Notes: generated by a model from the letters alone, not told the origin. A DNA stretch of 62,121 nucleotides, filler included, from Actinobacteria bacterium UBA7524 (GCA_002478275.1; 8 parts of 8 records of this genome joined end to end with filler, not necessarily neighbours in it), one strand, 5' to 3'. Positions 23,025-54,113 are shown, counted from the whole stretch's first letter. A program made the numbers and translations.

Positions 23025-23046
23025 CACTTCAAACTTGAACTCAGGC
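23025..23046. mobile_element. Repeated element end, copy 1 (IS30-like IR)
   Basis: CACTTCAAACTTGAACTCAGGC is identical at 28754-28775 and 42226-42247, each at a contig start. Confidence 0.6.
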
Positions 23047-24077
23047 AAGTGGGGCAGCCCCGGCTGCGTCTTGACCGCCGTCACCCATGACACGACAACA
23101 AGAGGCACATTCGAGAGGAGACCGAGACCCGCCTGGCGTATGAACTCAGCGGGAGCCGGCCAGTTCGCGACGTCCGTCTCCTTCAGCAGAGCGCCGAACG
23201 CATCCCAGGCGCCTGCGTACACCAGTGCCCCGAAGCCCGTTCCGAGCAGCACCCACAAGGCGACACCCATCCAGACGTAGACGGGTGCGCCACCGCGCCG
23301 CGCACGACTGATCGCCACCCAGGCCACTGCGCAGGACACGACCACCCAGATGACGACGACTGAAATCCGCCCTAGACCGAAAGCCCGCGTCAGCTGCCCG
23401 AACGCGCTGCCGCCCGCCCAGGTGTAGAGCGCGGCCCCTGCGATCCACGAGGCGGAGGATCGAGGGTACACGCCGCGGGTCACCTCGACCGCACGCGCGG
23501 CAAGTTCGGGCGCCCTCTCCATGTCCCGCGCCGCTTGAGCGAGCAAGCGCCTCGTCTCATCCGGCCTGGACAGCCGCCACGCGAGCCATCCGATGGTCAC
23601 GGTGATGGCGGCGGCCACGCCGACGAGCAGCCATCCGACCGGGGTGAGCGAACGAGGACCGCCCAGGTCCCAGGTAACCGATATGAAAGCAATCATCAGC
23701 AGAGACAGTGGGATCATCAAGGCGGCGAACGGCAGCAGCATGGCCACACCGACGGTTCTCCAACCGGGACCCCCCATGCTCCAGACTCTGCCTCGCGCAG
23801 CCGCGAGCGGCTCATCCAGGGCGGCCGCGAGCGCCTCGCTGTACATGCGGAGTACCGAGAGCCGCGGGGTCGCCCACAGTACGTAAACCACGAACGACGC
23901 AAGCGCCGCCCCTGAAACGAGGTAGGACGTTAGCTGGGAAACCGCATCTGGAAGCACGAACGACGTCAGCACCAGGGCGACCACCGCCACCGCCGAGGAG
24001 ATCAGCAAGCCGAAGATGGCAGCCTGCAACCATGCGGGCGCTTCCGCATTGAGTCTCTCCACCAGGCTCCTCGACAC
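23047..24077 (-). CDS. Gene-cassette multi-pass membrane protein (3' end abuts IS end)
   Basis: Many hydrophobic segments; GTG start 15 bp after the attC R' site. Confidence 0.7.
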
Positions 24078-24091
24078 GACTCCCCCACTTT

Positions 24092-24196
24092 GCCTAACGC
24101 TTGTGCGGATGAGCTGCAATACGCCGCCCTCCACGCTTTCCTAGCCGAGTGTACCTCGTCACGCGGCGTATTGACTGCTCGATCCGCTTGTTAGAC
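24092..24196 (-). repeat. Integron attC site (105 bp)
   Basis: Minus strand GTCTAAC-AAGCG-GATCGAGC-AGTCAATACGCCGC...GCGGCGTATTGCA-GCTCATC-..-GTTAGGC; R''/L''/L'/R' with extrahelical base. Confidence 0.9.
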
Positions 24197-24225: not shown

Positions 24226-24720
24226 TCACATCTGATTTCGCCGGCTCTGCGAACGCCTCGACACAAGACAGGCCAGCAAAGTCAGCGAGTAGGTCAAGAT
24301 GCCAACAACCGCGACCTGCAACGCTGGCTCCATGCGAGGCAACATGGCGACGACCCCGTACACCGGCGCACCGAAAGCGAAGACCAGGACCAGCGGCAAC
24401 AGCGCCAGTCCCGCTAGTTCCGAGTTCTGCACATCTGAGATGATGAGCCCCCAGAGCATCAGGGGCATCACTAAGGCGGCGGCGACCCAAAAGACCGTGG
24501 CGAAGCGAACGAAACGTGCCTCAAGGCGTCCGCCGGAGTACAACCCCGCGACAGGCCATGCCGCGAGTGCGACCAAGGTGGATAGGCTGCCCAAGAAGGA
24601 TGGCGAACCGCCCATGATGAAGTCCCCGGAGTTGACCGTGGCCGCAACCACCCACAGCAGCACCAAGACCAATGCCGACACCAGGGTGCGTCGTCTCACT
24701 GCAACCACGATTCGCATCAC
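24226..24720 (-). CDS. Gene-cassette membrane protein
   Basis: Hydrophobic 164-aa ORF bounded by attC sites; cassette ends GTTAGACACA / TGTGTCTAAC complementary. Confidence 0.75.
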   Translation of the reverse strand: MMRIVVAVRRRTLVSALVLVLLWVVAATVNSGDFIMGGSPSFLGSLSTLVALAAWPVAGLYSGGRLEARFVRFATVFWVAAALVMPLMLWGLIISDVQNSELAGLALLPLVLVFAFGAPVYGVVAMLPRMEPALQVAVVGILTYSLTLLACLVSRRSQSRRNQM

Positions 24721-24749: not shown

Positions 24750-25002
24750 GTCTAACGCTTGTGCGGATGAGCTNNNNNNNNNNNNNNNNNNNNNNNNNNN
24801 NNNNNNNNNNNNNNNNNNNNNNNNNNNNNNNNNNNNNNNNNNNNNNNNNNNNNNNNNNNNNNNNNNNNNNNNNNNNNNNNNNNNNNNNNNNNNNNNNNNN
24901 NNNNNNNNNNNNNTTGCGCATGACACGCGAGCCGCGGGCCATACGCGTCTACCCCAATCACCGTACCGGCGCGGCGAGTCGTTGTCGATGCGCGTGTTGG
25001 AC
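24750..25002 (-). repeat. Two partial attC sites flanking an N gap
   Basis: 24750-24773 GTCTAACGCTTGTGCGGATGAGCT is near-identical to the start of attC 24092; 24914-25002 is a hairpin ending GTCGATGCGCGTGTTGGAC. Confidence 0.8.
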
Positions 25003-25035: not shown

Positions 25036-25828
25036 CTAGGAACCCGGGTAGCCATATTCCTGGTGCGCCGGATGCGCGCTCATGAACTTTCGAATCCGCT
25101 CAGCGAGTTCCGTCGCTGTCTGGTGACTGACGCCGCCCCCTGTCACCATTCGGACCTGGTCGGCTGTGCCGAAAGTGAGCCAGTGAACCTCATTCGAGAT
25201 TCGCTCGATCCACCTGACCGAGTCGGGCGAGCGGACATTCACTTCAGTGCACGCTGAACGCATCTGCACTTCCAGCACAACGCCCCCGCGCGCGAGGCTG
25301 ACGAACCGGGAGTCGACCTCTACAACCTCCCGTTTGGCACCTGCTCGTGATGCCCAAAGTAAGCCCAACAGCATAAAGACGCCAATAGCAGCTGCCGGCA
25401 GCGTCCAGGACGGACCCTCCAGTCNNNNNNNNNNNNNNNNNNNNNNNNNNNNNNNNNNNNNNNNNNNNNNNNNNNNNNNNNNNNNNNNNNNNNNNNNNNN
25501 NNNNNNNNNNNNNNNNNNNNNNNNNNNNNNNNNNNNNNNNNNNNNNNNNNGTCCAGGACGGACCCTCCAGTCTGGATGGAACAATCGCGTCTAGCGCACC
25601 CCAAGTGAGCGCAAGCGTAGCGAACGACAAAGATGCCGCCAGCACAGCGGCCAAGAGCCTAGCCGCCGATCGTGCAGGCATGTCGATTACAAGGCGTATC
25701 GGACCTCGAGCGACCTGACCAACGCCGGTCACGAAAGGCTGGTCGAGCTTGGTCTGCCATTCGACGGTTGCTGGCGTTGAGTCGAGATAGACGTAGGTGT
25801 GTCTAGAATCTCGCTCGGGCACCATCAT
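25036..25828 (-). CDS. Gene-cassette membrane protein (one ORF across an overlap gap)
   Basis: 22-bp overlap either side of the gap merges ...LEGPSW with LEGPSWTLPAAA... in frame; two TM segments. Confidence 0.65.
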
Positions 25829-25839: not shown

Positions 25840-25906
25840 GTCCAACGTCTCTTGAGATGAGCTGCAGCCGGCAAGGCCGGCTGTCAGCTCGATCTCATGG
25901 TTAGGC
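25840..25906 (-). repeat. Integron attC site (67 bp)
   Basis: Plus strand GTCCAAC..GAGATGAGCTGCAGCCGG caagg CCGGCTGTCAGCTCGATCTC..GTTAGGC. Confidence 0.9.
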
Positions 25907-25914: not shown

Positions 25915-26403
25915 CTAGTGGCCAGAGTCGTGGACCAGCCATCGCCCCGAACCGTCCTCCACCACTATGACATCGAAGTCGTCAGGCAGGACATCGTCGG
26001 GCTGTGGCTGCGGGAGCCGGCCGGTAACGTGGAAGACGGCGATTCGCTTGAATCCGCTTTCCTCGTACTGATCGACGAGCTCACTCGGTTTGATGAACCG
26101 CCCGCCCTGCACAATCGACTCGACCTCGAATCCTGTCCAGCGCTTCAGTTGTCCGAGATTGTCAAGATAGGCGGAGCGTCTGCTCTCAGTCACCGTCTCG
26201 ACCAGCGCGTCAATGTCGTTGCCGCTGAGCGCTTCAAGGTAACGCTCGACCACAGCGGCTGCGTCGCTCGTCTCCTGCGAGTCAAGCGGAGCAGTCAGAC
26301 TAGCCGCTCCTCCGGCTCGCGTCTCTGGAGCAACCGCACAACCTGCCAAGAGTGAAACCAGTATCATCACAAGTACCGCAACGGAGACTCGCTTTGCCAA
26401 CAT
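25915..26403 (-). CDS. Cassette lipoprotein (NTF2-like/DUF4829-like)
   Basis: Lipobox LAGC; VVERYLEAL...GRWLVHDSG; RBS AGGAGG. Confidence 0.65.
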   Translation of the reverse strand: MLAKRVSVAVLVMILVSLLAGCAVAPETRAGGAASLTAPLDSQETSDAAAVVERYLEALSGNDIDALVETVTESRRSAYLDNLGQLKRWTGFEVESIVQGGRFIKPSELVDQYEESGFKRIAVFHVTGRLPQPQPDDVLPDDFDVIVVEDGSGRWLVHDSGH

Positions 26404-26477
26404 GACCCTCCTGACGTCATCGAGCCGAGAGTTCGGTCGCCGTTCGTCGTGCATGTCTGCTGTCTCGATGCTCTCGA

Positions 26478-27743
26478 TCATTTGTCGAAACTCGCCGTGC
26501 CGAACCGAAGTCTCCGCATATAGCAGTTGGAACCGCCCCAGCCATTGATCACGTCGGTGAGCGCCCGGTCCTTCAGATCGCTTGAATGCTGACAAACGAA
26601 CCACCTGCTCCACCCGGACTTCGAATTGTCGAGGCGGCTTGCGTATACGGAGTGACCGTAGCTGCCGCTGCTGCCGTTGCGCACCTGCAGTACGTTACCA
26701 ACTTCGAGATCGCTTGAGCTCATGTTGGTGTACTTGAGATTGTTGTTGAAGCCAGTCGCTTTGGGGCCAACCGTCTTGGACGAGATGGAGTACGTCCAGA
26801 ATGAGCTGACGCTTTCCCAGTTGGACACGCCGCCGCCCGTCCCAGCCTGCCAGATGCTAGGTACCATGCGCACCTTGTTAGTGATATTCGCTTTGCTCTG
26901 AGTGTCGTTTCCCTCAACGTAGCCGCCATAGGCCGCCCAGACGCACTGCGATACGAAGTTCGTGCAGTCACCCCCGTTGACGTAGTAGAACCATCTTGGC
27001 GCGGAGGAAGGGGCGAACCTGTTTGCATAGTTGACTCCGCGAGGGATGTAGTAGGAGTAGGAACTCGCAGCCAGCGCTACAGGCTCAGACTCGAGCATAG
27101 ACAAGTCCGCGTCCGCCGCACTCCTCTTCACCTCGTCGGCAAGTCCCGCAAGGGCATCTCTCCTCCGGCTCTTGACCGCTCCCAGCGAATCGTCAAATGA
27201 CTGTCCTGCTCTGATGCCCCCAGAAACCTCGTCCCTGAGCACCCGGTATCCGTCAAAGTCGCTTTGGATGCCGACTATCCGCCACGAGCTGCCGACGCGC
27301 TTGAGCTGGAACCTATAGGTCACGTTGTAGATGCCTGATTCGACCTCGGGTGACGACTTGTAGTGGTAGTCGACATCCGCAACAAGTGCGACTTCGGCCG
27401 TCCGTGGCTTGACCGACACCTCGACAACCCGCGTGCGCAAGGAGAAGTCGGACCAGCCTGTGCCGAGCCGCCTTGCACCGTCAAGCTCAAGCGCGTCCCA
27501 AGAGAGTGCGACTGCGGTGTCTTTGGTCAGATCGACGTTCGCGGGCTGGCGGTAGGAATCAAGTGAGACCAGTGCATCCAGACGCTCCCGCACATAGCCC
27601 TGGGCAATCGCGACGACCGCGTCTTGTTCCAGAGTATCGACAGGTGCGGCGAATGCTGGGAGTGGAGCGCCGACCGACGCGAGTGTCACCACCAATGCAA
27701 GCACCCCGCCGAAGCACCTGCTGACCAGCGCATGTACCGACAT
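26478..27743 (-). CDS. Cassette secreted putative amidase (Amidase_6-like C-terminal domain)
   Basis: Signal peptide (PAFA), YANRFA..GGDCTNFVSQC, GHS, CQHS. Confidence 0.75.
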   Translation of the reverse strand: MSVHALVSRCFGGVLALVVTLASVGAPLPAFAAPVDTLEQDAVVAIAQGYVRERLDALVSLDSYRQPANVDLTKDTAVALSWDALELDGARRLGTGWSDFSLRTRVVEVSVKPRTAEVALVADVDYHYKSSPEVESGIYNVTYRFQLKRVGSSWRIVGIQSDFDGYRVLRDEVSGGIRAGQSFDDSLGAVKSRRRDALAGLADEVKRSAADADLSMLESEPVALAASSYSYYIPRGVNYANRFAPSSAPRWFYYVNGGDCTNFVSQCVWAAYGGYVEGNDTQSKANITNKVRMVPSIWQAGTGGGVSNWESVSSFWTYSISSKTVGPKATGFNNNLKYTNMSSSDLEVGNVLQVRNGSSGSYGHSVYASRLDNSKSGWSRWFVCQHSSDLKDRALTDVINGWGGSNCYMRRLRFGTASFDK

Positions 27744-27851: not shown

Positions 27852-27943
27852 GCCTAACGTGGTTGCGGATAACCTGCGCGCCTACAGCTTACCGCGCGAA
27901 GCGCCGAGACGCTTGTCGCGTCAGGTTGATCCGCTTGTTAGCA
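27852..27943 (-). repeat. Integron attC site (92 bp)
   Basis: Plus strand GCCTAAC..GCGGATAACCTGCGCG...CGCGTCAGGTTGATCCGCTTGTTAGCA. Confidence 0.9.
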
Positions 27944-27952: not shown

Positions 27953-28564
27953 CTAGTCCGGCACCGCTCTCCACCAATGACCAGACTCGTGCTCGACCCG
28001 GTACATTTCCCGAAGCGACGCTGGGACGCGCGTACCCGTGGAGTCCGACACGTAGATCGAGGCCGAGTATGAGTCCAAGATGCCTCTCACGTCCCAGAAC
28101 CACACCGCCAACACGTCGCTGTCACGGTAGACGGTCACGACACCGCTGTCCGAAAGCAGCTTCTTGTATCCCTCCAGCTCGATGTCGTGGTGACCGGATG
28201 CATCTGCGTGCCGGTTTCGCTCGATGACCCTCTCAGCCAGCATCTCACGGACAGGTCGCTTCACTACGCGAGCACCTTCGTCAGCAACCATCGACAGAGG
28301 CAGGAACAGCAGGCAGGCGGCCACCGTGCCGCATGAGACGGCCAGCAGAGTGCGAGGTCGACGGCCACCGAATCTGGACGACACGGAATCGAGCATGAAG
28401 ATCGCACTCACGACGGCACCGATAAGCCCAATCGCGCCTGCAGCGAGCACCACAAAGCCGATAAGGATGAAGCCGAAGAACCCGATGGCTGCAGCCAACG
28501 GTGCTAGAAGCACGGTGATGGCAATCGGGGCCGCAAAGGCTGCGATGAGTGGACGGCGCTTCAT
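27953..28564 (-). CDS. Gene-cassette membrane protein
   Basis: N-terminal TM helices; bounded by an attC and an IS-interrupted R' site. Confidence 0.7.
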   Translation of the reverse strand: MKRRPLIAAFAAPIAITVLLAPLAAAIGFFGFILIGFVVLAAGAIGLIGAVVSAIFMLDSVSSRFGGRRPRTLLAVSCGTVAACLLFLPLSMVADEGARVVKRPVREMLAERVIERNRHADASGHHDIELEGYKKLLSDSGVVTVYRDSDVLAVWFWDVRGILDSYSASIYVSDSTGTRVPASLREMYRVEHESGHWWRAVPD

Positions 28565-28786: not shown

Positions 28787-29386
28787 TCAAGACGCGAGCA
28801 TAAGCAGCCCGCCCAACGTCCATGTAATCAGAGCGCGAACAGCAATAGGCATCCAGATGCCGGCGCTAAGCACCGCGGCTACGATGTATGAGATTCCCTT
28901 GGTCTTCTTGCTTAGATTGCCATTCCATAGCAGACCGAATATCAGACCGCCAAACATGAAGTTGGCGAAAGAAATTGCCTTGCTGGACCTGAGCAAGGGC
29001 TTATCTGTGAAGTACGACGGATAGAACTTCACGGCATAGACGAACATGACGATGTTTCCGACCATGCCGGACAGCTGAGGGAACATTTCCTCGCTGCCTC
29101 CGAGCATGGCAGTCAGCATCATCAGAGGCATTGCGACCAGAGTCCCCAGGAACACAAACAGCAGGAAGCCAGGTATCAGCCCGAGAACAGAGAATCCTAC
29201 TGATGTTTTCCATGCTTCCAGGACCGGTGCCGGGGGCGATTCGCCGGAAGGTGCCCCCGACTCAGCAGTGGGTGAACTGGCAAGAGTGGGCGCCATATCC
29301 TGTGTCCATGCGGTTCCATCCCAGTACCGCTGTTGTTCAGGGCTCTCGGGATCCGGATACCATCCGGCGGGTGCTGTCTGCGTCAT
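28787..29386 (-). CDS. DUF2510-type domain membrane protein (cassette)
   Basis: PAGWYPDP..QRYWDGTAWT followed by TM helices. Confidence 0.8.
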   Translation of the reverse strand: MTQTAPAGWYPDPESPEQQRYWDGTAWTQDMAPTLASSPTAESGAPSGESPPAPVLEAWKTSVGFSVLGLIPGFLLFVFLGTLVAMPLMMLTAMLGGSEEMFPQLSGMVGNIVMFVYAVKFYPSYFTDKPLLRSSKAISFANFMFGGLIFGLLWNGNLSKKTKGISYIVAAVLSAGIWMPIAVRALITWTLGGLLMLAS

Positions 29387-29479
29387 GTGGGCCCCGTCCC
29401 TCGTTCGGTTTCGTATGCGACGCGGACTCCCCAGTTGCGTCGCCTGCAGACAGTGTACATTCGCCGATGACATCTGCGC

Positions 29480-29551
29480 GTCTCACGTGTTTGGCGTGAC
29501 CCGCAGACCGCGGCTCGTCAGCCGGGGTTCGCCGTCCCCGCCGATGCGGTC
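29480..29551 (-). repeat. Degenerate attC remnant
   Basis: GTCTCAC (for GTCTAAC) GTGTTTGGCGTGACCCGCAGACCGC...GCGGTC; the L''/R'' arm is missing. Confidence 0.45.
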
Positions 29552-30863
29552 ATTGATTCCTAGGCGGAGGGTAGAGCTTGGGCTTGGGGGGGCCTGGGAC
29601 TGGCCACACCCGATAGATGTCGTCTAGCTCCTTCTGCATCTTCCCATCCGCATCACGCCAAACCTTGAACCTGACGACATAGTTCTCATCTTCACGGTTG
29701 ACGTCGTGCAGGCCGTGAACAAGCACGGTGTCAGTTCCATTTCTGCTTACGTGCGCGCTGCTCCCCCAAACGAGGTCGGCGAAGTGTTCGTCCTTTGCGG
29801 CCGCGGCATCTCGCGCGTCAGCAAGTAGCCTGTCCCTACTGCCGAGTTCCTTGACCCAGAAGTGCTGCGGGTCCGGCCTTCCTTCGGAATACAGGGGCCA
29901 ATCGTCACTCCGCATCAGCTCGACTTCATCCCCCTGGAAAGTGACGTAGACATAGCCGCCCTCGACCCCGAGCTGCACGTCTGATGTCCGCGAGGGGTAC
30001 GCCTTCGCATCAATCACATTGACCATAGAAATGGAGTCGACGCCCAAGGACCTCAACACCTCAACCAGACTGTGCGCCTGCGCATCACGAAGTCCCTGGT
30101 ACTTGAACTCGCGAATGACCCGTTTGGGGTCATCCCTGATCGACAGCATGGCGTCTGAACCTTCCGAGAAGAAGCTGGACAATGCCAGAAGCAGGATCGG
30201 TAGAGCAACCGCCCAGTACACCCAGCGCGGCCTTCCCCACTCAAGCAGCCTCTTCGCTCGAGAGGAGATCGATTGTGGGTCACCTGGGACCGGTCCTGCG
30301 GGAGCGGCCCATGAAGCGCCCTCCCAGAACCTCTGTAGACCGGGATGCTCGGGGTCCTCATACCAGCCAGCCGGTGGGAACCTTTCGGGCCAGAGAGCGC
30401 GCTCAATCTCCTCAGCCCTGGCAAGAAGAGCGGCGTGACGTTGATCTCTTGAAACGGTCGCCACTTCCCTGAGTGGGTACCACTTCCCCGTGTCGTTCGG
30501 CACGAACAGCCACATGAGTTCCTCTGCGTCCGTGAAGGAAACGGGCGTCTTGAGCGTGATGCGGATATAGAGCCAAGTCGAGAGAGTGTGAATCCAGCGA
30601 CCGGCGGTCATGGCGTTGAGGTAGCCGGCAAGCGCGAAGAAGCTGGGTATTCCGACCAGGAGGAAGATGCCGATTACTATGGTCGCCAAGCTGCGAGGCA
30701 GCAGCATGACCAGATTGAAGGGGTTGAACCCCACGGCGTGGAAGTAGCTCGGGATTGCCCACAGAGCCGCCCAGAGAACACCCATCCACATGAAATAGGT
30801 GGCGTATACAAGCACATTCAGGGCGCGGTAGTACCCGTGGGTGTTTGGAACTTTGACTGCCAC
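29550..30863 (-). CDS. DUF2510-type domain membrane protein (cassette)
   Basis: TM helices plus PAGWYEDP..QRFWEGASW; RBS GAGAGGAG. Confidence 0.75.
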   Translation of the reverse strand: MAVKVPNTHGYYRALNVLVYATYFMWMGVLWAALWAIPSYFHAVGFNPFNLVMLLPRSLATIVIGIFLLVGIPSFFALAGYLNAMTAGRWIHTLSTWLYIRITLKTPVSFTDAEELMWLFVPNDTGKWYPLREVATVSRDQRHAALLARAEEIERALWPERFPPAGWYEDPEHPGLQRFWEGASWAAPAGPVPGDPQSISSRAKRLLEWGRPRWVYWAVALPILLLALSSFFSEGSDAMLSIRDDPKRVIREFKYQGLRDAQAHSLVEVLRSLGVDSISMVNVIDAKAYPSRTSDVQLGVEGGYVYVTFQGDEVELMRSDDWPLYSEGRPDPQHFWVKELGSRDRLLADARDAAAAKDEHFADLVWGSSAHVSRNGTDTVLVHGLHDVNREDENYVVRFKVWRDADGKMQKELDDIYRVWPVPGPPKPKLYPPPRNQ

Positions 30864-30906: not shown

Positions 30907-30996
30907 GTCTAACGATGTAGCGCATAAGCTGCGCGCCACCAGCTTACCGCGAAGCGCCGAGGACATGTGCGCGTCAGCTTGATGCGCCTGTTAGCG
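30907..30996 (-). repeat. Integron attC site (90 bp)
   Basis: Plus strand GTCTAAC..GCGCATAAGCTGCGCGC...GCGCGTCAGCTTGATGCGCCTGTTAGCG. Confidence 0.9.
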
Positions 30997-31447: not shown

Positions 31448-31458
31448 CACAGTCCTCC

Positions 31459-46363: not shown

Positions 46364-46483
46364 CTTGCCCCCACCCACATTGCTCGAGCTAGTCACTATG
46401 AGATGGCCGGCCCGATTCCGGTGTATACGTGGATCGTCCCCGAGGAACAGGCCCCGGGGCGCCGACAAACGGAGGGACCGGCC

Positions 46484-47581: not shown

Positions 47582-47799
47582 TAGACGTCATGCACGCGGG
47601 CGGGCGCCACATTCCGGAGAGATCCTCGATCACGTTATGCGACGTACGTAAGCGCGCGCCTAGTTGGAGGCAGGCTCCGGTCCGACCGAGATGTGGGGTT
47701 GAAATCCCCGGATATCAGCATGGTCGAGCGCCGAACCCATGTGCCCGCCCGCTTGCACAACCCCCAAGATCAAGACCGCCGTGAGCGATGGGGGGTTGA
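47582..47799 (+). ncRNA. Predicted seek/bridge RNA of the IS1111-type element
   Basis: Structured NCR closed by GCGGGCGGGC / GCCCGCCCGC; contains CACGTTA, CGCCTA (target-like) and ATATCAG (donor-junction-like); near-identical copy after 53951. Confidence 0.65.
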
Positions 47800-47898
47800 C
47801 CGGCCATCTCATATCAACGTGTTTGCGCATCACCCGCAAACCGCGGCCGATGCGACCGACGGCAAGCGTACAGCTCTTGGCCGCGGTTTGTCGCGGTG

Positions 47899-49178
47899 CT
47901 GCTCCTATGTCAATCCTACACCGCCTCAGCCACCACGACTGGTGAGAAATCGACGTGCACGACCCCTGCGCCCCTCGCTCGCTCCGCCCGAAGCATCGTC
48001 TTGTAGAGCGTGCGGGTGATGTGGCGCTTGAGGCATCTGAGCGCCTCGCGCGTGCTCATCCCTTCAGCCCGCTTGCGCTCGATGTAGGCGATCGCGGGCG
48101 GGTGCATGCGCGCCTGCGTGACGGCGATGATGTGGACCGTGGAGTTGAGTGTCCTGTTCCCCGTGCGATTCAGCCGGTGGCGCTCGGACTTGCCGGAACT
48201 GACCGCAAGGGGCGCCGTGCCTACGTGCATCGCGAAGGCGGCCTCTGAGCGGAATCGGCTTGCCGTGCCGGTCTGGCCCACAAGGTGGGCCGCGGACAGC
48301 GCAGAGCACCCGGGCACCTCCGTGAGCTCAGGTGCGAGCACGCGCACGTGTTCGCGTATCTCGCGTTCGAGTGCGCGGATGTCTGCCGTCAACTCGCGAC
48401 AGCGCCTCACCTGATCGATCGCAATACGCCGCCGCATGCTCTCAGGCAACAAACCAAGCGCCGCCTCGAGCTTATCGAGCCACACGTAGCGGTCGAGCAC
48501 TCGGGGCGGCAGCTCGAGTGCGACCTCGAGGTCATGGCAGTTCCAGCGCAGGCGCCTGATGATACGCTGGCGCTCTTCGACCAGGTCATCGCGGTGATCG
48601 GCAAGCAGGCGCACGTCGTGTTCGGGGCCGGCCGGCGTCGCGAGCGGCAGCGACGGCTCCCGAAGCGCGGCTCTGGCCACGCATGCGGCGTCGATCGGGT
48701 CGGACTTGCCGTACGTACCAAGAGGTGGCGCTCGAGCCTGCCCGACACATGCCGGCAGTCGTCGATCGCGAAAGTGCGCTGCTCGTCCAGGCCGCGTACC
48801 CAGGAAAGCAGAAGGGCGTACCCCTCCGAGGTGCAGGGGATGGTCTTGTCCCCCACGCTGCGTCCCGTCGATGCGTCGAGAGCCACCGCGGTGTGGGTCT
48901 TCATATGCGGGTCGATGCCGACTACGATCATCACTGTCCCCTTCCGTCGGAAACACCTTCCGATCGTGGGGCACGTCGGCGGACACGCCTTAGCTGGGGC
49001 CTCTAGGCCAGGCTCCTATCAGGTCACGACGACGACCCCTCGGATCCGGCGGCGGGGGACATAACACGCGTAGGTCAGCCCTTCGAAGCGACAGATGCGC
49101 AGGAGGGTCACCCCACCGCCAGAACCAAGGCTACCCGACTCGCGTCAGGCATCCCACAAGGAACAGAGTGACGCTAAG
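47899..49178 (-). mobile_element. Second IS110-family element with 5' non-coding region
   Basis: Right end TTGACATAGGAGCAG (minus strand); inserted in the L'' box of the attC; NCR about 48935-49178. Confidence 0.8.
47916..48934 (-). pseudogene. IS110 transposase, frameshifted by an internal deletion
   Basis: N-terminus IVVGIDPHMKTH..AIDDCRHVSGRLERHLL and C-terminus GKSDPIDA..GTAPLAVSSG..RLNRTGNR are in different frames, joined near 48715. Confidence 0.8.
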
Positions 49179-49188
49179 GATGCGCGGG

Positions 49189-50031
49189 TTAGCCAGCAAT
49201 CGGAGTGAGGAGCTGGAAGAAGGTCCACAGAACCAGTGCCAGCAGCAGGACCGCAAACACCCAGCGCGCAGTTACCGGCAGTCGATACCAGTCCCGGCGA
49301 ATCTCTAGGTACTGCCGAACTGCCCACCCAATGCCAAGCCCGAGAATCCCAGACAGCACTGTGGCGAGCACCAGTATTGCTGTGCGCTGCACCACCGTCG
49401 CAGCTTGAGGGATACCAAAGACACCCGCAGCCAACGCCCCAGTGAGAGAACCCACTAGACCACCGAAGCCTATTGGTGAAACACGGCCATACTCCTTAGC
49501 ACGGTGCCTCTTGTGGCGACGAATCGCGTCACGATCATCTGCGCCCGCGACCCCGATACCATCGACGGTACGCATGAAGACAGTTCGCTCAGAGTACTCC
49601 GTTGAAGAAGTGCGCAGTCTGCGCGTTGTCTCATGCACATGCGATGTCGGATGTATTGTGAGCACGCCAATGCGGCGAGACTCGAACTCGACGACATCGA
49701 ACTCGAGATGGTCAACGGGTGGGTCAGATGCTGACGAAAGCAGTTGAGCGATGCGCCTACAAACCCCATCGGTGGGGAAATCGATAGCGTCATACGTCTC
49801 CCGACCCCCGTTCTCATCTCTGGTGTCGGAAACGCCTACAACCAGATAGGCCTTGTCACCGGCGGTCGAAGCACTGCCGTTTGCAAGTGACAGGACATCC
49901 TTGATCAACTCACCTCTACTGCGCTCGCGAGCTTCAGTGGCCTCGGCGTCAATCGGATACCATGCGCGTTTGAACTCCAGAGTGGGGCCCTCGTCCCTCT
50001 GGATAAGTTCAACTAGCTGGTCGACGTTCAC
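49189..50031 (-). CDS. Schlafen/AlbA_2 domain protein with C-terminal TM helices (cassette)
   Basis: DEGPTLEFKR, KDVLSLANG, YLVVGVSD, three TM segments; TAA stop inside attC R''. Confidence 0.85.
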   Translation of the reverse strand: MNVDQLVELIQRDEGPTLEFKRAWYPIDAEATEARERSRGELIKDVLSLANGSASTAGDKAYLVVGVSDTRDENGGRETYDAIDFPTDGVCRRIAQLLSSASDPPVDHLEFDVVEFESRRIGVLTIHPTSHVHETTRRLRTSSTEYSERTVFMRTVDGIGVAGADDRDAIRRHKRHRAKEYGRVSPIGFGGLVGSLTGALAAGVFGIPQAATVVQRTAILVLATVLSGILGLGIGWAVRQYLEIRRDWYRLPVTARWVFAVLLLALVLWTFFQLLTPIAG

Positions 50032-50050: not shown

Positions 50051-50299
50051 GGCTAACGTTCTTGGGCGTAACCCGCAACGCCGACGCCCGGCTTCCTGCC
50101 CGAGTCTACCTCACACNNNNNNNNNNNNNNNNNNNNNNNNNNNNNNNNNNNNNNNNNNNNNNNNNNNNNNNNNNNNNNNNNNNNNNNNNNNNNNNNNNNN
50201 NNNNNNNNNNNNNNNNNNNNNNNNNNNNNNNNNNNNNNNNNNNNNNNNNNNNNNNNNNNNNNNNNNNNNNNNNNNNNCGGGTTGACGCCCGGGTTAGAC
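50051..50299 (-). repeat. attC site spanning an N gap
   Basis: GGCTAAC..GGGCGTAACCCG ... CGGGTTGACGCCC GG GTTAGAC arms are complementary. Confidence 0.8.
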
Positions 50300-50430: not shown

Positions 50431-50447
50431 CGGAGGGGAATGTGCGC

Positions 50448-51881
50448 ATGAGTACCCAGATAGGCGTCCGTGAAGCCGCAGAACTCTTGGGAATCAGTCA
50501 GCAGAGAGTGCGGACGCTCTGTCGGTTAGGGACTCTGCCGGCCAAGATGGTCGGGAACGCCTGGGTCGTCGAGCGTGAAGCCGTGGATCTCTACGGACTC
50601 CAGACCGCGCATATGGTCGCCGAAGACCACCCTACGTATCAACCGGTCAGCTCCGCCCAGAGGAGGCCTATCGCGCTCAGCTTCTTCAGCGGGGCGATGG
50701 GCTTGGATTTGGGCATCGAGAAGACAGGGTTCCGTGTCCTGCTGGCGTGCGAGGTCGACAAGTACTGCAGGCAGACCATAGCCATCAACCGCCCAGCGAC
50801 CGCGCTGCTCAGCGACATCAGCACATACTCGAAGGGTGACGTCCTGGAGGCCGCAGGGCTCACCGAGGATGACGACATCGACCTGGTCATTGGTGGACCC
50901 CCTTGTCAGGCGTTCAGCACTGCCGGCAAGAGGAAGGCTTTCAACGACGACAGGGGGAACGTCTTCCTTGACTACATCGAACTAGCCCTGCAGCTTCGAC
51001 CCAAGTTCATCGTTATTGAGAACGTTCGGGGACTGCTGTCTTGCCCCTTGGATCACAGACCTCATGATCAGCGCGGTTCCGAGTTCCCAGACCTGACTGC
51101 TGACGAACTGAAGGGCGGCGCGCTGAACTTCATTCTCTCGAAGCTCCGGAACTCCGGGTACGGCTACTCCTTCAATCTGTATAACTCGGCCAACTTCGGG
51201 ACTCCCCAGATCAGAGAGCGCGTCATCATCGTTTGTGCTCGGGATGGCCAAGCACCACCGTTCCTGACTCCGACGCACTCTGAGAACGGAGAGTACGGAC
51301 TACTCAGGTGGCGTACTTTCAGGCAAGCGACTGCGGGACTGACGGATCACCAACACCTGACCTTCCCGGAGAAGCGGCTGAAGTATTATCGAATGCTCAA
51401 GCCCGGCCAGAACTGGAGGGCTCTTCCTAGAGAGTTGCAGAGAGAAGCTTTGGGCAATTCCTTCTATGCTGGCGGCGGCAAGACCGGCTTCCTGAGAAGG
51501 CTCGACTGGGACAAGCCCGCTCCCACGTTGGTGACCCACCCGGCGATGCCGGCGACCGACCTCGCCCATCCCGAGGAGGACAGACCTCTGTCTTTGCAGG
51601 AGTACAAGAGACTTCAGGAATTCCCTGACGACTGGCAGCTTGCCGGGCCCATGATTCAGCAGTACAAGCAGATTGGAAACGCTGTTCCGTGCAGCCTAGG
51701 ACAAGCCGTCGGCCGCCTGGTTATCGAGCTGATCAACGGGGAGACGCCCCAGGACTACCCGGGCTTCCCGTACTCCCGGTACAAGAACACCGCCAACACC
51801 GATTGGGAGAGAGAGTTCGCCCAGGCCCTCAGCAGATCTGTCGTGCCATCTCCGACTCAAGAGGAGCTGGCTCTCACCTAG
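50448..51881 (+). CDS. DNA (cytosine-5) methyltransferase with N-terminal HTH
   Basis: FFSGAMGLDLG, GGPPCQAFS, ENVRGL, PQIRER, QEFPDDW, QIGNAVP; N-terminal EAAELLGISQQRVR. Confidence 0.95.
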   Translation: MSTQIGVREAAELLGISQQRVRTLCRLGTLPAKMVGNAWVVEREAVDLYGLQTAHMVAEDHPTYQPVSSAQRRPIALSFFSGAMGLDLGIEKTGFRVLLACEVDKYCRQTIAINRPATALLSDISTYSKGDVLEAAGLTEDDDIDLVIGGPPCQAFSTAGKRKAFNDDRGNVFLDYIELALQLRPKFIVIENVRGLLSCPLDHRPHDQRGSEFPDLTADELKGGALNFILSKLRNSGYGYSFNLYNSANFGTPQIRERVIIVCARDGQAPPFLTPTHSENGEYGLLRWRTFRQATAGLTDHQHLTFPEKRLKYYRMLKPGQNWRALPRELQREALGNSFYAGGGKTGFLRRLDWDKPAPTLVTHPAMPATDLAHPEEDRPLSLQEYKRLQEFPDDWQLAGPMIQQYKQIGNAVPCSLGQAVGRLVIELINGETPQDYPGFPYSRYKNTANTDWEREFAQALSRSVVPSPTQEELALT

Positions 51882-52618
51882 GACGGGCTACCCCAGACGT
51901 TTCCCTCCTCCATGCAGAGACAATCTGGATTCGAAGACACCGTTGCGTTCACGAACGCCACGAAGGACTCCTCTGAGAGATCAGAAGTTCCGCAGATTTC
52001 GTTCAGCTCATCCCACATGTACTGGATTCTGTCGGCCTTGATTCGAAACCACTTCTCGATCACCGTTCCAGCTCTAACCGTGCTACTCGAACTGTTCTCG
52101 GAGTTGCTGCGGTTCTTCACTTGCAGCAACGCGCCGTTCTCATGGACGAAGTCGACAGACTTGACGGTCTCCCCCCAGGCACAGTGCCAACCATGTCCCT
52201 CGAGGTTCACGGCCAGATACTCCTCGAGAATCAACCCCAGGATGTTCTCCGCTGACATTGCGAGTCGGTGAGCGTACGTGATCCTCTCAAGATCCTCATC
52301 GCTCAACCCGTCAAGGCGAGCGGCGATGATCTTCTCAATCACGGGGTCAGCAACGGTTCCGGGGGGATTCGATGCTCTCACTGAGGCACGACCCTCGTAT
52401 CCGCGTTGGTACTTCAGAACCCACTTCTCTATAGCCGCACGGGCACTGTCGCTGGCACCGCCGATGTTTGCGGGGACGCGCTCCGGATCCGCAACAATTG
52501 CTGCGAACACGTAGCGGGCTCCGCCTTGCCAGTCGACACCCGCGATCTCCGCGTACTCCGCGGCGACGGCCGTCGCCCTGCTAGCACCCATGCTCGCAAT
52601 CGCATCCTTGAGCTTCAA
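51878..52618 (-). CDS. Type II restriction endonuclease, SinI-like family
   Basis: MSAENILGLILEEYL, GETVKSVDF, LQVKNRSNSENSSS; convergent with the C5-MTase. Confidence 0.75.
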   Translation of the reverse strand: MKLKDAIASMGASRATAVAAEYAEIAGVDWQGGARYVFAAIVADPERVPANIGGASDSARAAIEKWVLKYQRGYEGRASVRASNPPGTVADPVIEKIIAARLDGLSDEDLERITYAHRLAMSAENILGLILEEYLAVNLEGHGWHCAWGETVKSVDFVHENGALLQVKNRSNSENSSSSTVRAGTVIEKWFRIKADRIQYMWDELNEICGTSDLSEESFVAFVNATVSSNPDCLCMEEGNVWGSPS

Positions 52619-52643
52619 TGTGCCTCCGATCTTGTCTACGTCT

Positions 52644-54113
52644 AGTCACTATGAGATGGCCGGCCCGATTCCGGTGTATACGTGGATCGTCCGCGGGAAT
52701 GAGCCCGCGGCGCCGACAAACGGAGGGACCGNNNNNNNNNNNNNNNNNNNNNNNNNNNNNNNNNNNNNNNNNNNNNNNNNNNNNNNNNNNNNNNNNNNNN
52801 NNNNNNNNNNNNNNNNNNNNNNNNNNNNNNNNNNNNNNNNNNNNNNNNNNNNNNNNNNNNNNNNNNNNNNNNNNNNNNNNNNNNNNNNNNNNNNNNNNNN
52901 NNNNNNNNNNNNNNNNNNNNNNNNNNNNNNNNNNNNNNNNNNNNNNNNNNNNNNNNNNNNNNNNNNNNNNNNNNNCGGCTACTTGGCCGCCACGACCCCC
53001 TCGGCACACAGCTGTGCTACGAGGCCGGACCCACCGGCTACGACACCCACCGGCTCATAAGCGCACTGGGCTTTCCTTGCGAGGTGATCGCTCCTTCGAT
53101 GATCCCGCGCAGGAGCGGGGTACGCGTCAAGACCGACCGCATCGATGCCAGGAACCTCGCACGTCTGCACCGTGCAGGCGAGCTCACGAGCGTCCGCGTC
53201 CCGGGGATCGCCGAGGAGGCCGTGCGCGACCTCATACGCGTGCGCGAGGAGGTCAAGTGCGACCGAAGGATCGCGCGTCAGCGCATCCGCAGCTTCCTGC
53301 TGCGTTATGGCAAGCGCTATACGGGTCCGCGTGACGCATGGTCCAGGCGCTTCGAGACCTGGGCGCGCGCCGTGAAGTTCGACGAACCACACGCGGACGA
53401 GGCGTTCGGGCATCTGCTTGCCGCTTACTTCATGCGCGACGCACAACTCGCCGAGATGGGCAGGCGCATCGAGGAGATCGCGCAGACCGAGCCTTTCGCG
53501 ACGGATGTGCGCCGCCTGAGTGCGTTGCGCGGCATCTCCACTCTCTCTTCGATGACCATCCTCGCCGAGACATGCGACTTCGCTCGATTCGGTGATGCGG
53601 GAAGCTACATGGGGTTCACCGGCCTGACCCCTTGCGAACACTCGAGCGGGGCGAGCCGCCACCAAGGCTCGATCACCAAGACCGGCAACCGTCACGTACG
53701 CCGTGTGCTCGTCGAATCGGCCTGGGCATATCGCCACGCGCCTGCGGTGCGAGGCAAGCTCAAAGAACGGCTCGAAGGGCAACCGCCTGAGGTCGCGGCC
53801 TATTCGTGGGCCGCGCAGGTCAGGCTCAACGGAACATATCGACGTCTCGCCGCTAAGAAGGGTGCGCACACCGCCGTCGTGGCCACCGCCCGTGAACTCT
53901 CGGGCTTCATCTGGGGGCTTATGACCGACAACCTCGGCCCCTGCGCGGTAGTAGACGTCATGCACGCGGGTGGGCGCCACATTCCGGAGAGATCCTCGAT
54001 CACGTTATGCGACGTACGTAAGCGCGCGCCTAGTTGGAGGCAGGCTCCGGTCCGACCGAGATGTGGGGGTGAAATCCCCGGATATCAGCATGGTCGAGCG
54101 CCGAACCCATGTG
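52644..54113 (+). mobile_element. IS1111-type IS110 element, copy 2 (gapped, right end missing)
   Basis: Same left end after ACGTCT; homologous transposase at about 52976-53951 and near-identical NCR. Confidence 0.9.

What the first reader, a model, noticed from the sequence alone, without database searches (positions are those of the whole stretch)
23025..54113. Integron gene-cassette array in an apparently actinobacterial (Coriobacteriia-like) genome
Seen: three contigs (23025-28652, 28753-32322, 42226-54113) carry minus-strand ORFs separated by imperfect palindromes with attC architecture: R'' RYYYAAC, 5 nt, L'' with an extra base, variable stem, L', R' GTTRRRY. Six are intact (24092, 25840, 27852, 30907, 31802, 43806; 61-105 bp) and several more are gapped or IS-interrupted. 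Two ORFs end with TAA inside R''. Known: large genome surveys reported integrons as essentially absent from Actinobacteria. Inference: DUF2510-type cargo, a leaderless TA promoter and GC content similar to the core contig suggest the array is native. No intI or attI lies in the window.
Basis: partly seen in the sequence, partly recalled or inferred. Interest (0 to 1): 0.9.

Follow-up and report, generated by a model that had tools for sequence, protein, structure and literature searches.

The report
Integron cassette arrays in Coriobacteriia
Three contigs of this uncultured Coriobacteriia-type actinobacterium carry genuine integron gene-cassette arrays, and about two thirds of the species-level genomes in its order encode the matching integrase, in a phylum that published surveys describe as essentially lacking integrons.

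Summary

- **Sites in the window.** It holds 12 attC-type sites, 7 of them intact. They separate co-oriented minus-strand ORFs on three IS-broken contigs.
- **Model test.** A covariance model built from six window sites scores them 62-89 bits on one strand and 10-19 on the other. It finds nothing in the core contigs. It finds rows of sites directly downstream of integron-integrase genes on megabase contigs of related genomes.
- **Structure.** Pairing covaries strongly. AAC/GTT and two extrahelical bases (G, T) are nearly invariant, and their spacing matches a class 1 attC.
- **Integrase in relatives.** IntI over the NCBIfam cut-off occurs in 96 of 145 genomes of the relatives' order. Source names label these Coriobacteriia or Anaerosomatales. 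In a phylum sample it occurs in 23 of 401 genomes.
- **Arrangement.** intI is co-oriented with the cassettes (the "inverted" type).
- **Mobility.** The window's toxin-antitoxin cassette recurs at about 98.6% identity in metagenomes of two other studies. Its flanks diverge at the attC R' boxes.
- **Gaps.** No intI or attI lies in the window, and the whole assembly is not held.
- **Prior record.** Papers of 2016, 2022 and 2026 report Actinobacteria as lacking complete integrons. NCBI already auto-names these proteins "integron integrase".
- **Earlier scan note.** This scan noted a similar array before in another Coriobacteriia genome (e1-4869052).

The parts
24092..24196 (-). attC A, intact, 105 nt. 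The cassette top strand is -. The folded bottom strand is +.
   Evidence: R1 73.9 bits on + against 10.1 on -; fold.
24750..24773 (-). attC B. Only the R' box and L' arm are present. The rest is lost in scaffold gap 24774-24913.
   Evidence: Sequence GTCTAACG..GCGGATGAGCT matches the 5' arm of attC A.
24914..25002 (-). attC B'. The 5' end is lost in the gap. The 3' arm ends in GTTGGAC 24996-25002. It is a different site from B, because the arms are not complementary.
   Evidence: R1 17.1 bits, E 0.0099, at 24901-25004; sequence.
25840..25906 (-). attC C, intact, 67 nt.
   Evidence: R1 61.8 bits; fold z -4.87.
27852..27943 (-). attC D, intact, 92 nt.
   Evidence: R1 83.2 bits.
30907..30996 (-). 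attC E, intact, 90 nt. It belongs to the toxin-antitoxin cassette.
   Evidence: R1 86.5 bits. Contigs from other studies' runs diverge at 30906-30909.
31802..31888 (-). attC F, intact, 87 nt. R'' holds the TAA stop of ORF 31883-32293.
   Evidence: R1 89.3 bits. It is 85-90% identical to attCs in G117, G107, G143 and G089.
32312..32322 (-). attC G. Only the R' box GCCTAACGTGG is present, at the contig end.
   Evidence: Sequence.
43806..43866 (-). attC H, intact, 61 nt.
   Evidence: R1 66.4 bits.
47816..49194 (-). attC K, split. The 5' part is 47816-47892 and the 3' arm is about 49150-49194 (..GGATGCGCGGGTTAGCC). A second IS110-family element lies inside, with its transposase at 47916-48986 on -.
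   Evidence: By eye, plus duplex of the two arms. Pfam Transposase_20/DEDD_Tnp_IS110.
50051..50299 (-). attC I, with scaffold gap 50117-50277 inside. More may be hidden in the gap.
   Evidence: R1 26.7 bits, E 4.2e-5; sequence.
61849..61936 (+). attC J, a lone site in the opposite orientation. It lies downstream of the radical-SAM gene 60491-61780 (+) on the contig carrying T4SS coupling-protein genes.
   Evidence: R1 41.2 bits on -, E 8.4e-10; Pfam/PADLOC.
23025..24077 (-). Cassette ORF for an unknown membrane protein. Its 3' end is cut by the repeat at the contig start.
   Evidence: ORF and Shine-Dalgarno sequence; no Pfam hit.
24226..24717 (-). Cassette ORF, 163 aa, function unknown.
25036..25828 (-). 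Cassette ORF with scaffold gap 25425-25550 inside.
25915..27743 (-). Two-gene cassette: a 162-aa unknown protein (25915-26403) and an Amidase_6 protein (26478-27743). No attC lies between them.
   Evidence: Pfam PF12671, 1.8e-23. R1 finds nothing between the genes.
27953..28564 (-). Cassette ORF, 203 aa, function unknown. An IS110 copy starts at 28631.
28787..30863 (-). Two DUF2510-domain membrane proteins (28787-29386 and 29550-30863) in one cassette.
   Evidence: Pfam PF10708, 5e-12 and 1.1e-6.
31163..31776 (-). Toxin-antitoxin cassette. The Gp49/HigB-like toxin is 31459-31749 (or -31776). The HI1420/HigA-like antitoxin is the 3' part of frame 31163-31714 (domain at residues 95-182, about 31163-31432).
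   Evidence: Pfam PF05973, 7.3e-7, and PF21716, 1.7e-34. Promoter-like site 31784-31756. The same cassette occurs in G117 and G125 and in runs X2-X4.
31883..32293 (-). Cassette ORF, 136 aa, function unknown.
42265..43727 (-). Two-gene cassette: a 179-aa unknown protein plus a PD-(D/E)XK protein that matches a candidate defence family.
   Evidence: Pfam PF14281; PADLOC PDC-S26, 3.8e-15.
43974..46363 (-). Two overlapping ORFs of 65 aa and 731 aa, function unknown. They are followed by IS110 at 46389.
49189..50031 (-). Cassette ORF with a Schlafen/AlbA_2 domain. Its TAA stop lies inside R'' of attC K.
   Evidence: Pfam PF04326; PADLOC PDC-S50, 2.3e-8.
50442..52618 (.). Type II restriction-modification pair: a C5 methylase on + (50442-51881) and a SinI-like endonuclease on - (51878-52618). 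It lies between attC I and an IS110 copy.
   Evidence: Pfam PF00145, 2.4e-57, and PF09570, 2.1e-37; PADLOC MTase_II/REase_II.
46389..47815 (+). IS110-family element (transposase 46484-47581). It abuts the AAC of attC K. Further copies start at 28631 and 52642.
   Evidence: Pfam PF01548/PF02371. The shared 22-nt start occurs at three places.

Best explanation
**What it is.** These are fragments of one or more integron cassette arrays. They belong to an uncultured member of a Coriobacteriia order that source records label Anaerosomatales/OPB41-type.

**Cassette structure.** Each cassette is one or two genes followed by its own attC. Most of these genes have no promoter of their own.

**Mechanism (inferred from the family).**
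- The bottom strand of attC, which is the window's + strand, folds into a hairpin.
- The hairpin's R box (AAC/GTT), L box and two extrahelical bases (G and T) are recognised by an IntI tyrosine recombinase.
- IntI cuts at G|TT of R'.
- It excises cassettes by attC x attC recombination and reinserts them at an attI site.
- In this lineage attI lies about 110-170 bp downstream of the intI stop codon, because intI points into the array.

**Shown here.**
- The site structure and its covariation.
- The strand asymmetry, which is in register with gene orientation.
- Bona fide IntI genes adjoining the same type of site in relatives.
- The same cassette sitting in different neighbourhoods, with break-points at the R' boxes.

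**Inferred, not shown.**
- Catalysis by IntI.
- The attI site.
- Expression from a promoter near intI.
- That this genome still has an intI.

**Cargo and later damage.** The cargo is typical of sedentary chromosomal integrons: mostly unknown membrane proteins, a toxin-antitoxin pair with its own promoter, a restriction-modification pair, and two candidate defence genes. IS110-family elements have since inserted into or beside attC sites and broke the assembly.
For: **Sites in the window**
- Six sites share one fold.
- 7 of 19 pairs already covary among the six.
- The R1 model separates the strands: 62-89 bits against 10-19 bits. It is silent on the core contigs.

**Structure across 51 sites**
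- The set is 7 window sites plus 44 from six relatives.
- 94.5% of cells pair, against 78.1% in shuffles (0 of 500 shuffles reach it).
- 12 of 19 pairs carry compensatory changes.
- Slid controls give 22-48%.
- AAC-G and G-T-T are invariant in 51 of 51. The extrahelical G is present in 50 of 51 and the extrahelical T in 48 of 51.

**Comparison with a class 1 integron**
- In an E. coli plasmid, R1 finds attC(aadA5) on the strand opposite its ORF (17 bits, E 0.0018).
- That site has the same T-6 nt-G-8 nt-GTTAG spacing.

**Integrase in relatives**
- TIGR02249 over its cut-off: 96 of 145 genomes of the order, 97 of 400 in the class sample, 0 of 14 control genomes.
- One IntI aligns end to end with VchIntIA (PDB 2A3V, E 1.5e-89). 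The alignment includes the IntI-specific insert and the catalytic motifs.
- It is 54% identical to IntI1.

**Adjacency of attC and intI**
- attC rows start 0.3-1.1 kb after the intI stop in 6 of 6 fetched regions.
- They are downstream and co-oriented in all 8 short loci that showed a site, out of 18 loci searched.
- That makes 13 genomes in all.
- Of 63 genomes with R1 hits, 55 are IntI-positive.

**Host**
- Source names of the IntI clusters read Coriobacteriia, Anaerosomatales, Actinobacteria or Actinomycetota.

**Mobility**
- Runs X2 and X3 (one study) and X4 (another study) hold only the TA cassette. In X2 an 879-nt contig covers 30932-31810 with 12 differences.
- Their flanks diverge at 30906-30909 and at 31811.
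- One X2 contig carries a different 1455-nt insert between E-like and F-like attCs.
Against: - No intI, attI or Pc lies in the window, and no whole genome is held. The arrays may therefore be integrase-less CALINs. In one search, 8 of 63 genomes with attC hits had no IntI.
- The curated IntegronFinder attC model could not be run. Rfam has no attC family and gave no hit.
- R1 was built from the sites it is used to support. Alignment A2 is fitted to the model, which inflates the paired-cell figures.
- The class 1 cross-hit is weak: 17 bits for one attC and 7.2 bits (E 1.3) for the other.
- The 5' arm spacer is 3-4 nt longer than in that class 1 site, so recognition by a typical IntI is not guaranteed.
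- The WhiB family, an actinobacterial signature, is missing from 5 of 5 tested genomes of the lineage. Phylum membership rests on depositors' labels and the reference taxonomy, not on a test of mine.
- The window is a binned assembly. The cassette contigs could come from a related strain in the same sample.
- The excision-like joint in the probable source run (30968->31862) is a single contig with a 27-nt side, which is weak.
Confidence: 0.9

Rival explanations
1. The arrays are CALINs: cassette clusters in a genome that has lost its integron integrase or never had one. They would be immobile relics, or would be serviced only in trans.
For: No intI lies in the 62 kb window. In one search, 8 of 63 genomes with attC hits lacked IntI. 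Several relatives carry attC clusters far from their intI, for example G085 at 0.90 Mb against intI at 0.57 Mb, and G063 on several contigs. At least four IS insertions have disrupted the arrays.
Against: 102 of 145 genomes of the order have an IntI match at E<=1e-40. The seven intact sites keep every conserved feature and score as high as the best sites next to intI genes. The assembly is fragmented exactly at repeats, so an intI contig could simply lie outside the window.
Confidence: 0.3
2. The cassette contigs were binned wrongly and belong to another organism of the same sample, so the link to this Coriobacteriia genome is an artefact.
For: The window is a set of short contigs from a metagenome-type assembly. 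Cassette contigs have somewhat lower G+C than the core contig (0.59-0.62 against 0.65). Short mobile contigs are the ones binners place worst.
Against: Window attCs are 85-90% identical to attCs of G117, G107, G143 and G089. Those genomes are also among the closest to the core contig, at 78-80% identity. Pooled cassette contigs correlate in tetranucleotide use at r 0.83 with the core contig and 0.85-0.91 with relatives' arrays, against 0.10-0.46 with proteobacterial loci. A donor from another phylum is therefore very unlikely. A sister strain of the same order cannot be excluded, and that would not change what the element is.
Confidence: 0.12
3. The palindromes are an unrelated intergenic repeat family (REP- or MITE-like elements, or terminators) that only resembles attC by chance.
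For: G+C-rich genomes have many imperfect palindromes after genes. Three of six sites fold no better than shuffles at z > -2.2. No curated attC model was available.
Against: The same model finds rows of sites immediately downstream of integron-integrase genes in 13 of 13 genomes that showed a site in the fetched flank. 55 of 63 hit-bearing genomes are IntI-positive. The AAC/GTT triplets and both extrahelical bases are conserved while the stems covary. A class 1 attC is detected on the correct strand. Cassette break-points in other metagenomes fall at the R' boxes.
Confidence: 0.02

Closest known systems
Sedentary chromosomal integrons (Vibrio superintegrons, Xanthomonas integrons; Cury et al. 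2016, Neron et al. 2022)
   Same: Chromosomal arrays of many co-oriented cassettes, mostly of unknown function. The attC sites are alike within a lineage. Toxin-antitoxin cassettes carry their own promoter. Defence-type cargo is present. The relatives' IntI has the family-specific insert.
   Different: The host is a Gram-positive-type actinobacterial order rather than Proteobacteria. intI points into the array. The R'-L' spacer of attC is 3-4 nt longer than in the class 1 site compared, and three extra base pairs shorten the unpaired central region.
Inverted-integrase integrons (Treponema denticola and others). I saw the arrangement described only in the methods passage of PMC13323075. The organism examples are recalled.
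   Same: intI and the cassettes are on the same strand, with attC sites downstream of the intI 3' end. This held in 13 of 13 genomes that showed a site.
   Different: I made no phylogenetic test of whether these IntI belong to that clade. The best plasmid-borne match is a cyanobacterial IntI at 60.7%, and IntI1 is 54%.
CALIN (cluster of attC sites lacking an integron integrase; IntegronFinder definition)
   Same: Within the window, each contig holds two or more attC sites and no integrase. This is the formal class the window itself would receive.
   Different: The lack of an integrase may be an effect of the fragmented assembly. Most relatives have a complete integron.
Class 1 mobile integron (intI1, dfrA17, aadA5 on E. 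coli plasmid NZ_CP115371.1, used as control)
   Same: The IntI family is the same, at 54% identity. The attC bottom strand shows the same order and spacing of extrahelical T, extrahelical G and GTTAG.
   Different: intI1 is divergent from its cassettes. It sits on a plasmid or transposon and carries resistance cargo. There are no resistance genes here. Its attCs score only 7-17 bits with the window's model.
IS1111-attC group of IS110-family elements that target attC sites (recalled, not read here)
   Same: IS110-family elements sit inside or against attC sites. One is inside attC K. Another abuts the AAC of attC K. Another copy of that element also lies where an upstream attC is expected. The same IS end interrupts an F-like attC in run X2 (loose end at 31877, compared by eye with window 47893-47916).
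   Different: Membership of that subgroup was not tested. The target position was inferred from only two cases.

Membership tests
Integron (complete) | An IntI tyrosine recombinase with the IntI-specific additional domain, next to the array. | tested here: not met
   No recombinase was found among the 53 window ORFs scanned, and the assembly is not held. The feature is met in relatives: 96 of 145 genomes of the order are over the TIGR02249 cut-off, and one IntI aligns end to end with PDB 2A3V, insert included.
Integron (complete) | An attI site adjoining intI. | tested here: inconclusive
   Not in the window. In relatives, a TACAC(G/A)GA motif (5 of 6 regions) and, in 3 of 6, a ..TTGTTAGRY junction follow the intI stop within about 170 nt. 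This is read by eye and was not modelled.
Integron (complete) | A Pc promoter driving the cassettes. | not tested
   Only the TA cassette's own promoter-like site was scanned.
attC recombination site | An imperfect palindrome R''-L''...L'-R' with conserved AAC and GTT triplets and a variable, structure-conserved stem. | tested here: met
   Folds. AAC and GTT are invariant in 51 of 51 sites, and lengths run from 64 to 110 nt. 12 of 19 pairs carry compensatory changes, and 94.5% of cells pair against 78.1% in shuffles.
attC recombination site | Extrahelical bases on the bottom strand that set strand choice and orientation. | tested here: met
   The unpaired G is present in 50 of 51 sites and the unpaired T in 48 of 51, both on the 3' arm. 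Strand asymmetry is 62-89 bits against 10-19 bits. The spacing matches attC(aadA5).
attC recombination site | A score above threshold with the curated IntegronFinder attC covariance model. | not testable with these tools
   That model is not available here, and Rfam holds no attC family.
Integron gene cassette | A compact, co-oriented unit that mostly lacks a promoter, ends in its own attC, and occurs in different contexts. | tested here: met
   In the three array contigs all genes but the methylase are on the - strand. Each of these ORFs stops from 29 nt before the R'' box of its attC to inside it. The TA cassette recurs in G117 and G125 and in runs of two other studies, with flanks diverging at the R' boxes.
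CALIN | At least two attC sites, with no integron integrase nearby on the replicon. | tested here: met
   There are 5, 3 and 3 sites on the three contigs and no integrase. This holds only for the DNA in view.

The most novel reading that the evidence does not exclude
Integrons are not foreign to Actinomycetota. One Gram-positive-type order of Coriobacteriia (Anaerosomatales/OPB41-type by source labels) carries resident chromosomal integrons of the inverted-integrase type in about two thirds of its species-level genomes. They have their own attC variant, a cassette pool shared across habitats, and attC-seeking IS110 elements. IntI also occurs in roughly one in twenty other sampled species of the phylum. 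On this reading, the reported absence of integrons from the phylum is an artefact of surveying cultured and complete genomes.
Probability: 0.75. Interest if true: 0.75.

Novelty: new member of a known kind. Interest (0 to 1): 0.68.

Why it matters
**What the literature says.** Surveys have stated that Actinobacteria lack complete integrons, and the authors called the gap puzzling.
- Cury 2016 (passages read) proposed that an unknown mechanism hinders their establishment in these lineages.
- A 2026 permafrost study (passages read) noted a "virtual absence" in Actinomycetota.

**What this changes.** Here is an order in which IntI plus attC arrays are the rule. That removes the need for such a barrier, at least for this branch.

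**What it opens up.**
- It gives a natural Gram-positive-type system for asking how integrons work outside Proteobacteria: folding of G+C-rich attC sites, expression with intI co-oriented, leaderless cassettes.
- The order has cultured members (Anaerosoma, Parvivirga; PMC9686372, passages read). I could not check whether those strains carry an integron. If they do, bench tests are possible.
- The cassettes are also an unexplored store of defence and membrane genes from subsurface and sediment habitats.

**What tempers it.** The element is an ordinary integron in kind, and NCBI's pipeline already names these proteins "integron integrase".

Tried and rejected
- **Rfam.** There were no matches at gathering thresholds across the window. 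An E-value scan of 23025-32322 gave only a chance RAGATH-32 hit. Rfam has no attC family.
- **Whole genome.** None is held, so intI could not be sought in the assembly.
- **Strict regex.** RYYYAAC...GTTRRRY caught only 2 of the 6 intact sites, because three R'' boxes depart from the consensus and attC C's R' box (GTTGGAC) also does. It was replaced by a covariance model.
- **WhiB as a phylum marker.** It was found in 0 of 5 genomes, while the control rang only in Corynebacterium glutamicum. It does not confirm the phylum. I could not tell whether this lineage simply lacks the family.
- **Genes upstream of intI.** Taking the longest ORF in 20 loci gave mostly spurious frames with no Pfam hit: 4 of 20 were informative, namely pnp, FprA-type, CWB2 and AbiEii. 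No conclusion on a conserved insertion locus.
- **LexA-type box.** I looked for GAAC-N4-GTTC (half-sites recalled) in the 200 nt upstream of intI in 13 loci. There were 0 perfect matches and 3 with one mismatch, at scattered positions. No support for SOS control.
- **RNA runs.** No RNA holder was listed.
- **Weak joints in the probable source run X1.** A joint skips the TA cassette (30968->31862; one contig, side 27). A second joint goes back 85 nt at 31888->31804. Both are too weak to count as excision products.
- **G309.** Its top-scoring IntI (508 bits) gave alignment statistics identical to those of the E. coli plasmid IntI1 and lies on a 1354-bp contig. It is probably contamination and is excluded from the lineage claim.
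- **Literature.** Searches on integrons in Coriobacteriia, Anaerosomatales, OPB41, Actinobacteriota or Actinomycetota found no paper describing resident integrons there. The archaeal-integron paper lists bacterial phyla without Actinobacteriota.

Full report
**1. What is in the window**

The window is eight contigs joined by artificial spacers. Other N runs are scaffold gaps.

Contig 3753-22924 carries housekeeping genes: NAPRTase, RlmKL, a histone-deacetylase-type enzyme, thioredoxin-like proteins.

On contigs 23025-28652, 28753-32322 and 42226-54113 all but one of the credible genes lie on the minus strand; the R-M methylase 50442-51881 is on plus. Most have Shine-Dalgarno sequences. Imperfect palindromes lie between them.

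As single-stranded DNA they share one fold:
- a helix pairing CTAAC with GTTAG;
- an internal loop of 5-6 nt on the 5' side and 1-2 nt on the 3' side;
- a 13-bp helix with two single-base bulges on the 3' arm;
- a variable loop.

**2. Is it more than chance?**

RNAalifold on the six sites gave 19 pairs, 7 with compensatory changes. I built covariance model R1 from that alignment.

With filters off over all 62 kb:
- the six sites score 61.8-89.3 bits on the plus strand and 10.1-18.8 bits on the minus strand;
- a seventh intact site appears at 61849-61936 in the opposite orientation (41.2 bits), just after a radical-SAM gene;
- a gapped site scores 17.1 bits at 24901-25004;
- nothing else exceeds 12.4 bits.

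Reading the sequence also shows four more damaged sites:
- one cut by the gap at 24774;
- one cut by the contig end at 32322;
- one with a gap inside (50051-50299; 26.7 bits);
- one split by an IS110-family element (47816-47892 and about 49150-49194).

That makes 12 sites, 7 of them intact.

The asymmetry has the same sense at all six array sites. The strand carrying the two bulged bases is the strand opposite the ORFs.

**3. Do the sites go with an integron integrase?**

No genome is held for the window, so I went through relatives.

- The core contig's RlmKL found its two best matches in MAGs titled Coriobacteriia (61%, handle G001) and Actinomycetota (58%, G002). Gammaproteobacteria followed at 44-53%.
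- G001 has a partial TIGR02249 match at a contig end: 253.8 bits over model positions 2-208.
- In a sample of 400 genomes of G001's class, 97 have IntI over the curated 265-bit cut-off, and 0 of 14 control genomes do.
- In the order of G005, which also holds G001, all 145 genomes were searched. 102 match at E<=1e-40 and 96 are over the cut-off.
- The one class-level positive outside that order (G309) gave alignment statistics identical to those of the E. coli plasmid IntI1, on a 1354-bp contig, and is probably contamination.

One of these proteins (342 aa) has these properties:
- It aligns from end to end with VchIntIA, PDB 2A3V (E 1.5e-89). The alignment includes the stretch specific to integron integrases and the catalytic R, K, HxxR, H and Y motifs.
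- It is 54.0% identical to IntI1 and 60.7% to a cyanobacterial plasmid IntI.

Within the order, IntIs are 65-78% identical to it.

**4. Are the window's sites the partners of these integrases?**

- R1, built only from window sites, found rows of hits beside intI in 6 of 6 regions fetched from contigs of 0.5-2.7 Mb. For example, it found 17 sites at E<=1 (16 at E<=1e-6) in the 10 kb next to intI of G044, whose other neighbour is the housekeeping gene pnp.
- In 18 shorter loci, 8 showed a site. All 8 were downstream of the intI 3' end and co-oriented with it.
- Across the two sets, 13 of 13 genomes that showed a site have this "inverted" arrangement.
- Over 151 genomes of the class, 63 had R1 hits at E<=1e-5. 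By my count from the tables, 55 of these 63 are IntI-positive, and 8 are not (G003, G011, G055, G067, G075, G097, G115, G123).
- Two IntI-positive handles up to G151 (G041, G095) showed no site. I assumed that those 151 genomes are a subset of the 400.
- Some genomes carry clusters far from intI.

**5. Structure across genomes**

The 51 best sites (7 window, 44 from six relatives) were aligned to R1. The results:
- 94.5% of cells pair, against 78.1% in shuffles (0 of 500 reach it).
- 12 of 19 pairs have changes on both sides.
- 142 double-change cells occur, against 35 expected.
- Sliding the partner by 1-3 columns gives 22-48%.

Caveat: the alignment is fitted to the model.

On the modelled strand:
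- AAC-G at the 5' end and G-T-T at the 3' end are invariant (51 of 51);
- the bulged G is present in 50 of 51 sites and the bulged T in 48 of 51;
- the order is T, 6 nt, G, 8 nt, GTTAG.

As a control from a textbook system, I fetched a class 1 integron on an E. coli plasmid. There:
- R1 finds attC(aadA5) on the strand opposite its gene (17 bits, E 0.0018), with the same T-6-G-8-GTTAG spacing and a 4-nt shorter 5' spacer;
- attC(dfrA17) is caught only through its R boxes (7.2 bits, E 1.3).

So the geometry of the arm that carries the extrahelical bases is the canonical one. The sequence and the other spacer are lineage-specific. That the bulged strand is the recombined bottom strand is established knowledge of the family (recalled), not something tested here.

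**6. Host**

- The core contig matches 393 of 400 class genomes. Its best matches, at 66-82% identity, are to members of the IntI-rich order. There is no species-level relative.
- Window attC F is 85-90% identical to attCs of G117, G107, G143 and G089. The TA cassette is 74-79% identical to copies in G117 and G125, one of them flanked by attCs.
- Tetranucleotide profiles of the pooled cassette contigs correlate at:
  - r 0.83 with the core contig;
  - r 0.77 with core DNA of G044 and G005;
  - r 0.85-0.91 with their arrays;
  - r 0.10-0.46 with proteobacterial loci of similar G+C.
- Exact-sequence look-ups show that NCBI and JGI already name these proteins "integron integrase". The organism labels are Coriobacteriia bacterium, Anaerosomatales bacterium, Actinobacteria bacterium HGW-Actinobacteria-1 and -6, and Actinomycetota bacterium.
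- Against this, WhiB is missing in 5 of 5 genomes tested. I therefore rely on those labels and on the reference taxonomy for the phylum.
- A phylum-wide sample gave 24 of 401 genomes with IntI at E<=1e-40, 23 of them over the cut-off. Three are from the order and 21 from elsewhere. Two of the 24 (G477, G538) are unpublished genomes and count only in this tally.
- Two of the outside genomes show weaker R1 hits (20.6 and 22 bits), again downstream of intI.

**7. Mobility in nature**

The 3.6-kb contig 28753-32322 is held almost whole by one run, the probable source. It is held in small part by 16 other runs.

Laying contigs of four runs showed the following:
- X2 and X3 (one study, marine sediment) and X4 (another study) hold only the TA cassette.
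- An 879-nt X2 contig covers 30932-31810 with 12 differences.
- The neighbouring sequence diverges at 30906-30909 and at 31811. These are the R' boxes of attC E and attC F, where integron recombination is expected to cut.
- Another X2 contig has E-like and F-like attCs with 1455 unrelated letters between them.

These are contigs, not reads. They show the same cassette in other contexts but not a recombination event.

**8. Cargo and later damage**

The cargo is as follows:
- Most cassettes encode unknown membrane or secreted proteins.
- Two have DUF2510 domains and one an Amidase_6 domain.
- One is a HigB/HigA-type pair with a promoter-like TTGCCA-17-TACACT that ends 6 nt before an ATG, which is compatible with a leaderless transcript.
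- One region is a SinI-type restriction-modification pair.
- Two proteins match candidate defence families PDC-S26 and PDC-S50.

The later damage:
- IS110-family elements start with the same 22 nt at 28631, 46389 and 52642.
- One abuts the AAC of the split attC K, and a second lies inside that site.
- The three cassette contigs begin with another shared 22-nt repeat. On contigs 28753-32322 and 42226-54113 it lies 11-17 nt from an ORF stop, where an R'' box is expected; on contig 23025-28652 it cuts into ORF 23025-24077.

**9. Comparison with what is known**

In kind this is an integron cassette array of the sedentary chromosomal type. Inside the window it is formally a CALIN.

What is unusual is the host:
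- Passages of Cury 2016 (PMC4889954) say all Actinobacteria genomes lacked complete integrons.
[quoted passage not shown] - The description of Anaerosomatales (PMC9686372, term search) mentions neither "integrase" nor "mobile genetic" elements.
- Seven full-text searches found no paper on resident integrons in these taxa.

This scan noted a similar array, without an integrase, in another Coriobacteriia genome (e1-4869052). I did not re-examine that DNA.

**10. Verdict**

The finding is real and its interpretation holds. I file it as a new member of a known kind. Interest is above average, because it contradicts a repeated generalisation and points to a whole order where integrons are common. 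Open points are whether this genome keeps an intI, where attI and Pc lie, and whether the system is active.

Noticed in passing
window 60491-61936: A lone attC (61849-61936; 41.2 bits, opposite orientation to the arrays) follows a radical-SAM gene that weakly matches prokaryotic viperin models (1.8e-17). It sits on the contig with T4SS coupling-protein genes. It may be a single cassette outside the arrays.
   Followed up: partly
window 46389-49150; run X2 loose end at 31877: IS110-family elements sit at fixed places of attC sites. The end of the element inside attC K (window 47893-47916) is the same 24 letters that interrupt an F-like attC in a marine-sediment run. This suggests attC-targeting insertion.
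   Followed up: partly
window 23025-23046, 28753-28775, 42226-42247; also 42104-42125 and 62100-62121: Contigs begin or end with exactly 22 nt of a shared repeat. Three contigs share one repeat and two share another. This marks unassembled IS copies at the breaks.
   Followed up: no
window 40319-42070: A serine resolvase, a Fic-domain protein and a VbhA-type antitoxin lie together on contig 32423-42125, next to a radical-SAM/SPASM gene and ABC-transporter genes.
   Followed up: no
window 17989-20361: Apart from two actinobacterial MAGs, the fused RlmKL methyltransferase has its closest relatives among Gammaproteobacteria (44-53%). This hints at an old transfer.
   Followed up: no
loci L089, L091, L101, L107, L108, L110, L112, L113, L115: 50-75 nt upstream of intI: A recurring GGT(T)AAG motif, followed in several loci after about 14-20 nt by TAYGCT or a similar hexamer, precedes intI in 9 of 13 loci read by eye. 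It is a candidate intI promoter or operator.
   Followed up: no
G309:C21 (locus L090): A public genome of the class carries an IntI with alignment statistics identical to those of the E. coli plasmid IntI1, on a 1354-bp contig. It is most likely a contaminating contig.
   Followed up: partly
genomes G044, G005, G151, G001, G285: None of the five has a WhiB-family gene, while the control rings in Corynebacterium glutamicum.
   Followed up: no
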